From positions 1 through 64,000 of the IMG/VR virus record IMGVR_UViG_3300023174_000053: a stretch of DNA of 64,000 bases. The stretch is one strand, 5' to 3'. Shown piece after piece: positions 31,415-63,361 of the stretch (position 1 is the stretch's first letter; each line of letters starts with the position of its first letter). A program made the translations under genes and the position numbers. The notes beneath the pieces were generated by a model. It made no database searches. It was not told the origin of the DNA and saw only the letters and a program-made list of their open reading frames with translations. This DNA comes from a virus.

Positions 31415-31562
31415 CATTATCCTCAAATACTTCATCGTAATCAATAATTCGTTGATTACTCTTTACTTTATGTGCTTGAACGTCTGTATAGATTTCTGCT
31501 TTCAAAGAATCTAAAAGCAGTTCCATATTTCTTATAATCAATTTAACTTTTTCTCTATCCAT
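31407..31562 (-). CDS. Small conserved hypothetical protein (51 aa)
   Basis: Manual translation MDREKVKLIIRNMELLLDSLKAEIYTD...DYDEVFEDNDD; overlaps the next gene. Confidence 0.6.
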   Translation of the reverse strand: MDREKVKLIIRNMELLLDSLKAEIYTDVQAHKVKSNQRIIDYDEVFEDNDD

Positions 31563-31593
31563 ATTATAAAGTTATCTTCAGTTATTCTAGCAT

Positions 31594-31620
31594 AAAAAAA
31601 GGAGGGAATCAATCCCTCCT
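31594..31620 (-). terminator. Intrinsic terminator after the downstream peptide
   Basis: aggagggatt / aatccctcct-type hairpin followed by a U7 run on the minus strand. Confidence 0.75.
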
Positions 31621-31626
31621 AGATTA

Positions 31627-31740
31627 TCAACGCATTGCCATTGCTAGTTTTGCTTGATGTTCACGTTGTTCTTTTTCTTTTTGTTGCTTGATTAAAACAA
31701 GCTGCCAGTTATTATTAGTTTTTACTTTTACTTGTGACAT
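31627..31740 (-). CDS. 37-aa peptide downstream of the riboswitch-like RNA
   Basis: MSQVKVKTNNNWQLVLIKQQKEKEQREHQAKLAMAMR; strong SD AAGGAG at 31749-31754 and its own terminator. Confidence 0.7.
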   Translation of the reverse strand: MSQVKVKTNNNWQLVLIKQQKEKEQREHQAKLAMAMR

Positions 31741-31773
31741 TAGGTTTTCTCCTTAGTTGTTTAGATTAAAGAG

Positions 31774-31942
31774 CGTTCCTTCAGTCGGCGTTTGCGTCTA
31801 TTTTACACCTTTTGGGAGTAATCTTTTTGATTTCCCAAATTAAATCATTACGAGTTTGTGGAGGCATATTTGCCTTCATAACTCTTCCAATAATCAATTG
31901 TGCCTGAAGACAACTGAGTAAGAGTGTTTCCATAGATGAACG
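31774..31942 (-). ncRNA. Glutamine riboswitch-like aptamer 2 (Downstream-peptide type) with a 130-nt coding loop
   Basis: CGTTCA-TCTAT-[130 nt]-ATAGA-CGCAAACGCCGACTGAA-GGAACG. Confidence 0.65.
31781..31933 (-). CDS. 50-aa ORF nested inside aptamer 2
   Basis: METLLLSCLQAQLIIGRVMKANMPPQTRNDLIWEIKKITPKRCKIDANAD*. Confidence 0.55.
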   Translation of the reverse strand: METLLLSCLQAQLIIGRVMKANMPPQTRNDLIWEIKKITPKRCKIDANAD

Positions 31943-31945
31943 ATC

Positions 31946-31987
31946 CGTTCCGCGTCGGCTTACTTCCGACCCAAAATGGGTTGAACG
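31946..31987 (-). ncRNA. Glutamine riboswitch-like aptamer 1 (glnA/Downstream-peptide family)
   Basis: CGTTCA-ACCCA-TTT-TGGGT-CGGAAGTAAGCCGACGC-GGAACG. Confidence 0.65.
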
Positions 31988-32055
31988 TACTGTATATATT
32001 AGCATAAAAATAAAAAAATAGCAACAGATGCTTTAAGTGTATCGTGCTGCTACTT

Positions 32056-32334
32056 TTATCTGCGTTTTTTCGTTTCTTTGGGAACATATCCATACATCTT
32101 TGGACTTACTTTTCCGTCAGTCCATTTAATTTCTTTAAGTGCTCCCTTTCCATACTCATCATAATAAGTATCAAACACTTCAACCTTACCACCTGCTTGT
32201 ACTATATCATATTTTTCTGTATCTTTTACAAGATACGTCACAAGATAAGAATTAATAGGAAGACTTGTATCTTTTGATAATGATTTATCGCAGTCTTTAT
32301 GTATAATATTCAACATTTTTCCTCCAGTTTTCAA
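32056..32334 (-). CDS. Conserved hypothetical protein
   Basis: ORF track; compact operon packing. Confidence 0.55.
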   Translation of the reverse strand: MKTGGKMLNIIHKDCDKSLSKDTSLPINSYLVTYLVKDTEKYDIVQAGGKVEVFDTYYDEYGKGALKEIKWTDGKVSPKMYGYVPKETKKRR

Positions 32335-37261: not shown

Positions 37262-38552
37262 TCAACCGATTGTTGGTGCAGTAAGAGCAACTTGTGTTGT
37301 CTCAGCAGCAGCAAGGTCTAAAGGAAAGTTATGTGCATTCTTAAACTTTTCTTAACTATCTGGTATTACTACCAGGATTGGACTATATCATCACCATTTC
37401 TGGTGTCGGACGCTTATTCCTGTTATTAAGGGAACTGTATCCCTCAGGTAGTCTCTGAACCTTTCTCAGATGTATCTGAGACTTGGCTGCTGATTGTCCC
37501 GTAGGATTTCCAGCAATTCATCCGATTTAAAGAGCGCAAAGCACAACTTGACGCTCATGAACCACTTCCAGTCCCAAATTTGCCCGATTAAGCACATCTG
37601 CCCAAGTAGGAATCACTCTACCTTGATGGTCAAGAATTGATTGATTAAAATTAAGACCATTAAGATTGAAAGATGAAACTGCAATACCCATAGCAGCACA
37701 CCAGATACCAAATACTGGAAGTGCAGCAAGGAAAAAGTGAAGACTACGGGAGTTATTGAAGGAAGCATATTGAAAAATAAGACGACCGAAATACCCGTGT
37801 GCAGCAACTATCGAATAAGTTTCTTCTTCTTGGCCAAACTTATATCCATAATTTTGAGATACTTGTTCGGTAGTTTCACGAACAATAGAAGAAGTCACAA
37901 GGGAACCGTGCATTGCTGATGCCAAAGCACCACCAAAAACACCAGCAACACCTAACATATGAAATGGATTCATAAGAATATTATGCTCTGCAGAAAATAC
38001 AAGCATATAATTAAAAGTTCCAGAAATACCAAGAGGCATTCCATCACTAAAACTTCCTTGACCAAAGGGATAAATCAAGAATACTGCGGTTGCAGCAACA
38101 GCAGGAGCACTATAAGCAACTGCAATCCAAGGACGCATACCCAAACGGTATGAAAGTTCCCATTCCCGACCAAGATAGCACCAGACACCAATCAAAAAGT
38201 GGAATACCACTGCTTGATATGCCCAACCATTATAAAGTGCTTCGTCAATAGAAGCAGCATCCCAAAGATTATAGAGATGCAGTCCAATCGCATTAGAAGA
38301 AGGAACAACAGCACCAGAGATGATGTTGTTTCCCCACATTAGAGACCCAGCAACAGGTTCTCTAATGCCATCAATGTCTACAGGGGGATTTGCAATAAAT
38401 GCAATAATAAAAACCGAAGTAGCAACAAGAAGGCAGGGAATCATCAGAACACCGAACCAACCAACATAAAGACGATTATCGGTAGAAGTCACCCAGGAAC
38501 AAAATTCGTCCCAGGCATTAAAAGTTTTGCGTGTAGCAATTGTAGCAGTCAT
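37262..38552 (-). CDS. psbA: Photosystem II D1 protein, spliced: exon 1 37551-38552 (334 codons), exon 2 37262-37339
   Basis: Exon 1 ends ...EVVHER; exon 2 reads [25 protein letters not shown]; the spliced product is 359 aa. Confidence 0.97.
37340..37550 (-). mobile_element. Group I self-splicing intron in psbA (211 nt, no internal ORF)
   Basis: The 5' exon ends in U and the intron ends in G. P1 GAGCGU/GCGCUC has the U.G pair at the splice site. Core elements P (AATTGCTGGAAA), Q (AATCAGCAG), R (GTTCAGAGACTA) and S (GATATAGTCC) are all present. Confidence 0.92.
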
Positions 38553-38700
38553 TTTTCGTTAAAGGGGTAGGTAATAGTTCAGGAGGTGCTGAACGGTAAA
38601 AGTATTCCTACGCAACCCTCCTGCGTAGGTATAAGGACGGATTTTACTTGCCTATTCCTGGTGCGGCAAGGTTAAGAAATGTGTTGATTCCTTAACATCT
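38553..38700 (-). ncRNA. Structured psbA 5' leader (PhotoRC-II-like motif)
   Basis: Four hairpins: gttaag/cttaac, cttgcc/ggcaag, cctacgca/tgcgtagg, gttcag/ctgaac. Preceded by the late-promoter-like site GATAAATA. Confidence 0.65.
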
Positions 38701-63289: not shown

Positions 63290-63361
63290 AGCGAAATAGG
63301 AGATTCGAACTCCTGACGTTCTGCTTGGAAGGCAGACATTCTACCGCTGAATTAATTTCGC
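63290..63361 (-). tRNA. tRNA-Gly(UCC)
   Basis: GCGAAAT/ATTTCGC acceptor; TCTGC-CT-TCC-AA-GCAGA; AGGAG-TTCGAAT-CTCCT; U73; no encoded CCA. Confidence 0.9.

What the first reader, a model, noticed from the sequence alone, without database searches (positions are those of the whole stretch)
31594..31990. Tandem glutamine-riboswitch-like RNA with a whole 50-codon ORF inside the second aptamer, upstream of a 37-aa peptide
Seen (minus strand): two back-to-back units, each bounded by CGTTCA...GGAACG. Unit 1 (31946-31987) has a short P2 (ACCCA/TGGGT) and CGGAAGTAAG. Unit 2 (31774-31942) has P2 TCTAT/ATAGA closing a 130-nt loop, followed by CGCAAACGCCGACTGAAGGAACG. The 50-aa ORF (31781-31933) starts in the 5' arm of P2. 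Its last codons and stop (ATA GAC GCA AAC GCC GAC TGA) are the aptamer's 3' strand. Next come a strong SD, a 37-aa peptide with 6 Gln, and a terminator. Established: these motifs match the glnA/Downstream-peptide glutamine riboswitch families of cyanobacteria and cyanophages, and in cyanobacteria a glutamine riboswitch controls the glutamine-synthetase inactivating factor gene gifB. Inference: translating the nested ORF and folding the aptamer exclude each other, so this could be a ribosome-coupled, nitrogen-sensing switch with two outputs. The downstream peptide might modulate host N assimilation.
Basis: partly seen in the sequence, partly recalled or inferred. Interest (0 to 1): 0.85.

Follow-up and report, generated by a model that had tools for sequence, protein, structure and literature searches.

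The report
Protein gene inside a glutamine riboswitch
A lake cyanophage carries a double glutamine-sensing RNA switch with a real, conserved 50-codon protein gene inside one hairpin of the sensor, a layout found in hundreds of cyanophages, including laboratory strains, that I could not find described.

Summary
Unit 1 (31946-31987, minus strand) scores 34.2 bits against Rfam Glutamine RF01739 (cut-off 35). Unit 2 (31774-31942) has the same flanks as loop-less second aptamers of related phages, which score 33.5-39.6 bits.

The 50-aa ORF in its P2 loop is a real gene (phrog_504, function unknown):
- 133 intact copies against 3 broken ones
- only in-frame indels, and median dN/dS 0.36
- two invariant Cys
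- 754 protein clusters in public data

The P2 arms covary across lineages. The start codon always lies 3-5 nt after CGUUCA. The last six codons, which double as the aptamer's 3' strand, show no synonymous variation.

Some phages, including P-SSM4, carry such ORFs in both aptamers. The downstream gene is normally a DUF4278 (IF17-like) peptide; the window's lineage keeps only a second module.

An anti-SD directly follows the aptamer, as in gifB. The most likely mechanism (inferred, not shown) is that glutamine-driven folding hides the nested start codon and frees the downstream SD.

One extra finding: the capping pairs covary between the two aptamers, not within them. This suggests that the P1 strands are swapped between the two units.

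I found no paper describing either feature.

The parts
31996..32024 (-). Promoter-like sequence: TTGCTA, 17 nt, TAATAT. It ends about 8 nt before the first aptamer.
   Evidence: Read directly from the sequence. It matches 8 of 12 consensus positions, so it falls below the threshold of the scan. Relatives have a similar arrangement, for example L131 and L139 with TTGACT, 17 nt, then TAATAT or TATAAT. This is an inference; no transcription start data exist.
31946..31987 (-). Aptamer unit 1. P1 is 31983-31987 with 31946-31950. P2 is 31977-31981 with 31969-31973. The core is CGGAAGUAAGCCGAC. It lacks the GAAG strand of loop E.
   Evidence: RF01739 34.2 bits, cut-off 35, E 1.2e-5. P2 covaries in relatives, with 4 of 4 pairs showing double changes.
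31943..31945 (-). The 3-nt linker GAU between the units. G31945 is the base that follows P1 of unit 1 (a60).
   Evidence: This position pairs with the third base of CGN of unit 2 in 151 of 157 tandems.
31932..31942 (-). 5' half of aptamer unit 2: P1 5' strand CGUUC, an A, then P2 5' arm UCUAU, which holds the A and U of the nested AUG.
   Evidence: This half is covered by the 52.4-bit match of model R1. The first ATG lies 3-5 nt after CGTTCA in 118 of 118 unique expanded units.
31781..31933 (-). Nested gene of 50 aa (phrog_504 family), predicted to form a two-helix hairpin with invariant Cys8 and Cys43.
   Evidence: 133 intact copies against 3 broken. Median dN/dS 0.36. 754 protein clusters. 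33 of 39 relatives hit phrog_504. AF2 pLDDT 83.8.
31774..31801 (-). 3' strand of aptamer unit 2: P2 3' arm AUAGA, linker CGC, AAAC, the mini-P3 GCCGAC, UGAAG and the P1 3' strand GAACG. The same bases are the last 6 codons and the stop of the nested gene.
   Evidence: Identical to the 3' strand of loop-less unit 2 in S-CREM1. That type scores 33.5-39.6 bits against RF01739. R1 matches it at 15.3 bits, E 0.0012. The six overlap codons show no synonymous variation across 90 sequences.
31767..31773 (-). Anti-SD CUCUUUA, directly after P1. Its first base, C31773 (b60), is also the capping-pair partner of G31966 in unit 1.
   Evidence: The minimum-free-energy folds pair it with UAAGGAG. CTCTTTA follows GGAACG in 85 of 165 unique loci.
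31749..31755 (-). Shine-Dalgarno sequence UAAGGAG of the downstream gene.
   Evidence: An SD and an ATG were found downstream in 146 of 165 loci, with the ATG 29-37 nt after P1 in nearly all of them.
31627..31740 (-). Downstream 37-aa peptide carrying only the NW..LIK..KE..AKLAMAMR module. It lacks the DUF4278 YRG module found in relatives.
   Evidence: Only 6 loci, including the window, lack YRG. The same module is fused to DUF4278 in S-CREM1, L034 and L222, and in the reverse order in L036 and L181.
31594..31620 (-). Intrinsic terminator: an 8-bp stem followed by a run of T.

Best explanation
**What it is.** This is a short early phage transcript of about 400 nt. Its leader is a double glutamine (type 1, glnA-class) riboswitch.

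**Shown.**
- The P2 hairpin of the second aptamer is expanded to hold a complete, translated gene for a 50-aa protein with two conserved Cys (phrog_504).
- The same nucleotides serve two roles. The P2 5' arm carries the AUG. The P2 3' arm, the ligand-site linker, the mini-P3 and the start of the P1 3' strand are the last six codons and the stop.
- An anti-SD follows P1 and can pair with the SD of the downstream small gene. Its first base is the capping-pair base.

**Inferred mechanism.**
- When glutamine is high, P1 and its capping pair form and stack on P2. This buries the nested AUG, which has no SD of its own. It also pulls the capping base out of the anti-SD helix and so frees the downstream SD, as proposed for gifB. 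The nested protein is off and the downstream peptide is on.
- When glutamine is low, the leader is open. Ribosomes load on the nested AUG, and their passage over the 3' strand keeps the aptamer unfolded.

The phage would thus read host nitrogen status early in infection and choose between two small proteins. In most relatives one of these is a DUF4278 (IF17-like) peptide, which may act on host glutamine synthetase.
For: **The aptamers are real.**
- Rfam scores are 34.2 bits for unit 1 and 33.5-39.6 bits for loop-less unit-2 homologues with the same strands.
- S-CREM1 has identical flanks and is annotated as a glnA riboswitch.
- P2 covaries in compact forms.
- Around the ORF, 12 of 15 distinct arm combinations form 5 bp. 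None of 2000 shuffles reaches that.

**The ORF is a real gene.**
- 133 copies are intact and 3 are broken. Lengths are 49-66 aa, with in-frame indels only.
- Median dN/dS is 0.36 over 1850 pairs.
- Two Cys are invariant.
- The family has 754 clusters, including annotated genes of cultured phages such as PRSM4_206 of P-RSM4 and PSSM4_169.3 of P-SSM4.

**The overlap is constrained at the RNA level.**
- Codons ATA GAC GCA AAA GCC GAC never vary synonymously. Asp is GAC in 90 of 90 copies there, against GAT 57 to GAC 6 in the interior.
- The protein tail changes to ..GRK, or is missing, when the ORF sits in unit 1.

**Coupling geometry is conserved.**
- The ATG lies 3-5 nt after CGUUCA in 118 of 118 units.
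- ORFs nested in unit 1 appear to start only about 12-16 nt from the inferred promoter, with no SD.

**Expression platform.**
- Folding pairs the anti-SD with the SD.
- Klähn 2018 (PMC6212724) showed that the gifB switch is glutamine-ON and proposed the same anti-RBS arrangement.

**Other points.**
- The downstream gene carries the YRG motif in 140 of 146 loci, and 29 of 31 sampled peptides hit DUF4278.
- RNA-library contigs from three studies run unbroken across the aptamers, the nested ORF and the start of the downstream ORF.
Against: - There is no ligand-binding, translation or reporter data for any member.
- No Infernal hit spans the insert.
- Unit 1 and the closest loop-less unit 2 fall just under the Rfam cut-off.
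- Neither unit alone has both loop-E strands, and the in-unit capping pairs are mismatched in the window (G-G and C-C). The sensor is therefore not two textbook aptamers.
- A 5-bp P2 closing 130 nt is weak on its own, and RNAalifold found no conserved structure inside the ORF.
- A ribosome terminating at the UGA could itself open the anti-SD. That would make the two outputs correlated rather than opposite.
- The RNA contigs could come from DNA carry-over.
- The window's downstream peptide is not DUF4278, so any link to glutamine synthetase is indirect here.
Confidence: 0.6

Rival explanations
1. Passive cargo. The P2 loop is simply a tolerant place where a small gene settled, much as homing-endonuclease genes sit in group I intron loops. 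The riboswitch controls only the downstream gene. The nested gene is translated independently of glutamine, and the aptamer works only on untranslated copies.
For: P2 loops vary in length and sequence in compact forms. The ORF is absent from 26 compact tandems that otherwise look functional. The ORF occurs in unit 1, unit 2 or both, which suggests modular gain and loss.
Against: The start codon is fixed 3-5 nt after CGUUCA, inside the P2 arm, in every lineage and in both units. No SD precedes it. The ORF almost always runs on into the aptamer core instead of stopping inside the loop. A freely placed cargo gene would not be expected to keep this register across such diverged proteins.
Confidence: 0.2
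2. Regulatory ORF. What matters is the act of translating the ORF, not its product. Ribosome traffic over the aptamer's 3' strand and anti-SD sets expression of the downstream gene, as a leader peptide or by translational coupling. The peptide itself has no function.
For: The stop codon lies 10 nt before the anti-SD, so a terminating ribosome would cover P1 and begin to open the anti-SD helix. Natural in-frame fusions of the nested ORF to DUF4278 exist (UGA to UGG; P0073, P0074, P0084). These show that ribosomes can run through this region.
Against: The protein sequence is under purifying selection (dN/dS 0.36, two invariant Cys, a conserved helix pattern across less than 20% identity). It folds confidently into a helical hairpin. 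Leader peptides are normally short and conserved only at their regulatory codons. The frame relation to the downstream ORF is random, about one third in each frame. The gap from stop to AUG is about 40 nt.
Confidence: 0.12
3. Relic sensor. The split second unit no longer binds glutamine. Its flanks are kept for mRNA stability, for the protein's C-terminal tail, or for the translation start.
For: The window's in-unit capping pairs are mismatched and each unit lacks one loop-E strand. No Rfam hit covers unit 2 in the window.
Against: The flanks are identical, base for base, to those of ORF-less units that reach the Rfam cut-off. P2 covaries around the ORF. The cross-unit capping pairs are kept in 157 of 157 and 151 of 157 tandems, with compensatory changes. 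The DAKAD tail is dispensable, because unit-1 copies end differently.
Confidence: 0.08

Closest known systems
Type 1 glutamine riboswitch (glnA RNA, RF01739) of cyanobacterial gifB (Klähn et al. 2018, PMC6212724)
   Same: It has the same P1 strands CGUUC/GAACG, a P2 hairpin, a CGN linker and a capping pair. An anti-RBS directly follows P1. The downstream gene is a DUF4278 (IF17-type) gene in most relatives.
   Different: The element here is phage-borne and always double. Complete protein genes sit in the P2 loop(s). The loop-E strands and capping partners are split between the two units. The window's downstream peptide has lost DUF4278.
Compact tandem glutamine riboswitches (157 doublets in Sherlock et al. 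2022, PMC9481103; the S-CREM1 'glnA' annotation, PMC9964418)
   Same: The order of the two units and their conserved cores are the same. S-CREM1 unit 2 has exactly the window's flanks.
   Different: Those have short P2 hairpins. The 2022 survey accepted a tandem only if no ORF intervened, so the expanded forms would have been excluded. It treats the doublets as independent, pseudo-cooperative units.
ORFs in peripheral loops of structured RNAs: group I intron homing-endonuclease genes, tmRNA, dual-function sRNAs such as SgrS/SgrT (own knowledge)
   Same: A protein-coding stretch is carried inside a folded functional RNA.
   Different: Here the host RNA is a metabolite-sensing aptamer. Start and stop codons are built from its conserved helices and ligand-site strand, so coding and sensing overlap base for base.
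[quoted passage not shown]
   Same: Translated ORFs were seen to overlap riboswitch aptamers, and the interplay of translation and sensing was left open.
   Different: That was a one-sentence observation on short uORFs in one species. No conserved protein family, hairpin-loop placement, covariation or dual-coding evidence was given.
Tandem glycine riboswitch (own knowledge; papers listed)
   Same: Two like aptamers precede one expression platform and interact with each other.
   Different: The glycine aptamers touch through tertiary contacts. Here covariation suggests that capping pairs, and perhaps whole P1 strands, are exchanged between the units.

Membership tests
Glutamine riboswitch type 1 (glnA RNA, RF01739) | Conserved P1 strands CGUUC...GAACG, with an unpaired A before P2 | tested here: met
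   Both units have them. All four strands are invariant in the 117 tandems with a correctly matched unit 1.
Glutamine riboswitch type 1 (glnA RNA, RF01739) | P2 hairpin supported by covariation | tested here: met
   In compact forms, 4 of 4 (unit 1) and 4 of 5 (unit 2) pairs show double changes, and 99% of cells are paired. In expanded unit 2, 12 of 15 arm types form 5 bp, and 0 of 2000 shuffles reach this.
Glutamine riboswitch type 1 (glnA RNA, RF01739) | Score at or above Rfam's gathering cut-off (35 bits) | tested here: inconclusive
   Window unit 1 scores 34.2. Window unit 2 gets no hit because of its 130-nt insert. Loop-less unit 2 of the same type scores 33.5 (S-CREM1, L130) to 39.6 (L127, L172, L173, L150).
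Glutamine riboswitch type 1 (glnA RNA, RF01739) | Long-range capping G-C pair between the third linker base and the base after P1 of the same aptamer | tested here: not met
   In the window these are G-G (unit 1) and C-C (unit 2). Within units, only 68 and 67 of 157 tandems are paired. Across units, 157 and 151 of 157 are paired.
Glutamine riboswitch type 1 (glnA RNA, RF01739) | Both loop-E strands (GGAAGUA and GAAGG) present in one aptamer | tested here: not met
   Unit 1 has CGGAAGUA but no GAAG. Unit 2 has GAAGGAACG but CGCAAA in place of CGGAAGUA. Both states are invariant in alignment A2.
Glutamine riboswitch type 1 (glnA RNA, RF01739) | Selective binding of L-glutamine with a structural change | not testable with these tools
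   This needs in-line probing or ITC.
Glutamine riboswitch type 1 (glnA RNA, RF01739) | Sits upstream of a DUF4278 (IF17-like) gene | tested here: not met
   The window's 37-aa peptide has no Pfam hit and no YRG motif. Relatives do meet this: 140 of 146 carry YRG, and 29 of 31 sampled peptides hit PF14105.
phrog_504 (cyanophage small protein, function unknown) | Profile match | tested here: met
   The window protein matches at E 8.8e-4 over residues 6-49. 33 of 39 relatives match, best E 5e-25.
Leader peptide or regulatory uORF | A short ORF whose product is not conserved as a protein | tested here: not met
   dN/dS is 0.36, two Cys are invariant, and the predicted fold is confident.

The most novel reading that the evidence does not exclude
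The double glutamine riboswitch of cyanophages is one strand-swapped, four-way-junction sensor rather than two aptamers in a row. In this reading the 5' strand of unit 1 pairs with the 3' strand of unit 2 (outer P1). The 3' strand of unit 1 folds back on the 5' strand of unit 2 (inner hairpin P1). Each ligand pocket is then capped by a base from the other unit, and the loop-E strands are contributed one by each unit. Protein genes are built into one or both P2 arms. Their start codons are hidden only when the whole assembly closes on glutamine. One RNA would thus give cooperative glutamine sensing with up to three protein outputs of opposite sign.
Probability: 0.35. Interest if true: 0.92.

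Novelty: new variant of a known kind. Interest (0 to 1): 0.85.

Why it matters
- **Riboswitch rules.** Riboswitch aptamers are treated as non-coding 5' leaders, and surveys discard arrangements with intervening ORFs. Here a conserved protein gene lives inside the sensor. Its start, end and stop codons are made of the sensor's own helices and ligand-site strand. This is an extreme case of dual coding and gives a direct physical route for a metabolite to gate translation of an embedded gene.
- **Riboswitches in phages.** A 2017 survey found only two glutamine aptamers in cyanophages. This layout occurs in hundreds of contigs and in at least a dozen cultured cyanophages. P-SSM4 was checked in detail and shows the full arrangement.
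- **Function for unknown genes.** It gives a testable role to three small cyanophage gene clusters of unknown function (T4-GC 429-431 in P-SSM4): sensing host nitrogen status early in infection.
- **Tandem riboswitches.** If the cross-unit capping pairs hold up, they would change how tandem glutamine riboswitches are thought to work.

Tried and rejected
- **One Infernal hit across the insert.** Rfam cmscan at E up to 10 found nothing for unit 2. My model R1 matched the two halves separately. Infernal cannot bridge 130 nt, so I used natural loop-less homologues as the test instead.
- **RNAalifold on 85 clade-A sequences.** It kept P1 but mispaired the P2 region and found no conserved structure inside the ORF. 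I therefore dropped an extended P2 helix (ACACUC/GGUGU) that had seemed to covary between DSL-LC02 and DSL-LC03.
- **Fuzzy search for natural variants in the P1 strands.** I wanted these to tell swapped from unswapped P1. The strands are invariant, and the variants found were spurious upstream matches.
- **Programmed UGA readthrough into the downstream ORF.** The frames are about equally 0, 1 and 2, so this is rejected as a general feature.
- **Fold search of the nested protein against the PDB.** Nothing scored below E 1.
- **Protein Atlas.** No usable hit.
- **Genome scan for the unit-2 3' strand.** There were only 5 hits. All are MAG or single-cell contigs that look like phage DNA, so no host copy was found.
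- **Literature.** Ames & Breaker 2011 is not held in the library, so I cannot exclude that it mentions large P2 inserts.
- **RNA contigs.** Some leave 31506-31676 and 31977-32069 uncovered in one run. I draw no conclusion from these gaps.
- **The search of earlier findings.** It returned only an unrelated carbamoyltransferase note.

Full report
**Context**

The window is part of a 171-kb T4-like cyanophage record from lake water. It also carries a group I intron and a PhotoRC-II RNA. Its closest cultured relatives are freshwater and estuarine Kyanoviridae: S-SRM01, DSL-LC02, DSL-LC03 and S-CREM1.

**The observation**

- unit 1 at 31946-31987
- unit 2 at 31774-31942, with P2 UCUAU/AUAGA closing exactly 130 nt
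- a 50-aa ORF at 31781-31933
- SD UAAGGAG
- a 37-aa ORF at 31627-31740 with six Gln
- a terminator at 31594-31620

A promoter-like TTGCTA-17-TAATAT ends about 8 nt before unit 1. The whole unit is therefore a transcript of about 400 nt (inference).

**Is it a glutamine riboswitch?**

- Unit 1 scores 34.2 bits against RF01739, whose cut-off is 35 (E 1.2e-5 locally).
- Unit 2 gives no hit, because Infernal cannot bridge 130 nt. A model built from 26 loop-less tandems (A2, R1) matched unit 1 plus the 5' half of unit 2 at 52.4 bits, and the 3' strand separately at 15.3 bits.
- The natural control is decisive. S-CREM1 has the same two units, and its unit 2 flanks are identical to the window's, but with a 20-nt P2 hairpin. 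Its authors annotated the element as glnA.
- Loop-less unit 2 elements of this type score 33.5-39.6 bits.

**Is the nested ORF a gene?**

Two IMG/VR scans were run, one anchored on the 5' junction and one on the unit-2 3' strand. Together they gave:
- 133 intact nested ORFs of 49-66 aa, with only three truly broken copies (L069, L095, L112)
- length differences that are all multiples of three
- median pairwise dN/dS of 0.36 in the window's clade, below 1 in 98.5% of 1850 pairs
- only two invariant residues, both Cys, across lineages down to less than 20% identity, with a hydrophobic N-terminus and two amphipathic helices
- an AlphaFold model of a helical hairpin at pLDDT 83.8
- 754 protein clusters, all unnamed
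- membership of phrog_504 for 33 of 39 representatives

Cultured phages carry the gene as 'hypothetical protein': P-SSM4, P-SSM7, P-RSM4, P-RSM6, P-TIM40, S-TIM4, S-SSM7, Syn30 and others.

**Coding and sensing overlap**

- The first ATG lies 3-5 nt after CGUUCA in all 118 unique expanded units. That places it in or at the P2 5' arm.
- The P2 arms covary between lineages: UCUAU/AUAGA, UCCCA/UGGGA, UCCUC/GAGGA, UCCUU/AAGGA, UCUUA/UAAGA and others. Twelve of 15 combinations form 5 bp, against a shuffled mean of 22%, and 0 of 2000 shuffles reach the observed value.
- In the set anchored only at the 5' end, the last six codons (ATA GAC GCA AAA GCC GAC) never change synonymously. Interior codons vary freely: Cys is TGC 46 to TGT 44, and interior Asp is GAT 57 to GAC 6, against GAC 90 of 90 in the overlap.
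- This is the signature of an RNA constraint laid over a coding one.

**The design is general**

- In L125, L131, L180 and L182 a homologous ORF sits in the P2 of unit 1. It ends at the UAA of CGCAAGUAAG or inside the P2 arm.
- In L010, L012, L013 and the model phage P-SSM4, both aptamers carry ORFs. In P-SSM4 these are PSSM4_169.2 and PSSM4_169.3, followed by the DUF4278 gene PSSM4_170.
- The unit-1 ORFs appear to begin only about 12-16 nt after the inferred promoter, with no SD.
- The unit-2 3' strand was found in only five contigs of 185,579 prokaryotic genomes. All five are MAG or single-cell contigs that look like phage.

**Downstream gene**

- 140 of 146 loci with a recognisable SD and ATG encode a peptide with the YRG motif.
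- 29 of 31 sampled peptides hit DUF4278. DUF4278 is the domain of the glutamine-synthetase inactivating factor IF17 (Klähn 2018).
- The window and five near relatives have lost this module. They keep only a second module (NW..LI..KE..AQLAMAM), which elsewhere is fused to DUF4278 or follows it.
- Some marine phages fuse the nested ORF in frame to DUF4278 through a UGA-to-UGG change. The frames are otherwise unrelated.

**Expression platform**

CUCUUUA directly follows P1 and pairs with UAAGGAG in the minimum-free-energy fold. Its first base is the capping-pair base. Klähn et al. proposed the same arrangement for the glutamine-ON gifB switch.

**Mechanism (inferred)**

- Glutamine stabilises P1 and its cap (Huang 2019).
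- That would bury the nested AUG and release the downstream SD.
- Without glutamine, ribosomes load on the nested AUG and, by crossing the 3' strand, hold the sensor open.
- Whether terminating ribosomes also open the anti-SD is an open point. If they do, the two outputs would be correlated rather than opposite.

**An unexpected feature**

- In single aptamers the third base of the CGN linker pairs with the base after GGAACG.
- Among 157 unique tandems, the within-unit pairs form in only 68 (unit 1) and 67 (unit 2). In the window they are G-G and C-C.
- The cross-unit pairs form in 157 of 157 tandems (G:C 92, C:G 65) and in 151 of 157.
- On alignment A2 the within-unit pairs are 50% paired and the cross-unit pairs 100%.
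- On a tree of 105 loci each site changes at least seven times, and all six independent contrasts covary (p 0.031).
- Unit 1 carries only the 5' loop-E strand and unit 2 only the 3' one.
- The simplest reading is that the P1 strands are exchanged, giving an outer and an inner P1. The P1 strands never vary, so this rests on the capping pairs alone.

**Expression**

Contigs from RNA libraries of three studies run unbroken across 31677-32079 in near relatives. This is compatible with transcription of the whole unit without removal of the insert. It does not prove it, because DNA carry-over cannot be excluded.

**Literature**

- The searches found no description of a gene inside a glutamine aptamer or of swapped capping pairs.
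- McCown 2017 reported only two glutamine aptamers in cyanophages.
- Sherlock 2022 counted 157 doublets but accepted tandems only without intervening ORFs.
- A preprint notes uORFs within other aptamers in M. tuberculosis.
- Ames & Breaker 2011 could not be read.

**Verdict**

- I put the anatomy at about 0.9: real aptamers with a real gene in P2.
- I put the reciprocal two-output mechanism at about 0.5.
- I put the strand-swapped architecture at about 0.35.

Noticed in passing
window 31966 with 31773, and 31794 with 31945 (minus strand); alignment A2 columns 29:107 and 50:86: The capping pairs of the two aptamers covary across units (157 of 157 and 151 of 157 tandems), not within units (68 and 67 of 157). 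Each unit also holds only one loop-E strand. This suggests a strand-swapped double aptamer.
   Followed up: yes
L010, L012, L013 and L139 (IMG/VR); L224:150-740 (P-SSM4, genes PSSM4_169.2, 169.3 and 170): Some phages carry a nested ORF in unit 1, or in both units. The unit-1 ORFs (about 66-75 aa) have a longer, signal-peptide-like N-terminus. They start about 12-16 nt after the promoter-like sequence.
   Followed up: partly
P0073, P0074 and P0084 (108-116 aa; marine metagenomes): These are natural in-frame fusions of the nested protein to the DUF4278 peptide, made by a UGA-to-UGG change in the aptamer core. This hints that the two proteins act together.
   Followed up: partly
window 31627-31740 (-): The window's lineage (with L023, L026, L055, L061 and L107) has lost the DUF4278 YRG module of the riboswitch-controlled gene and keeps only the second module. 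Relatives seen in RNA contigs also lack 6 nt at 31720.
   Followed up: partly
window 37359-37663 (-), 38594-38684 (-), 63290-63361 (-): There is a group I intron (87.3 bits), a PhotoRC-II RNA (47.4 bits) and a tRNA elsewhere in the window. The first two are typical of the cyanophage psbA region.
   Followed up: no
L172:1071-1268 (-), L132:1640-1839 (-): Strong manA RNA matches (161-175 bits) lie a few hundred to a few thousand bases from the glutamine riboswitch in marine phage contigs.
   Followed up: no
window 32025-32056 (-): An inverted repeat (GTAGCAGC...GTTGCTAT) followed by a run of T lies between the upstream gene (phrog_485) and the riboswitch promoter. It is possibly the upstream gene's terminator, and it overlaps the -35 region.
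   Followed up: no
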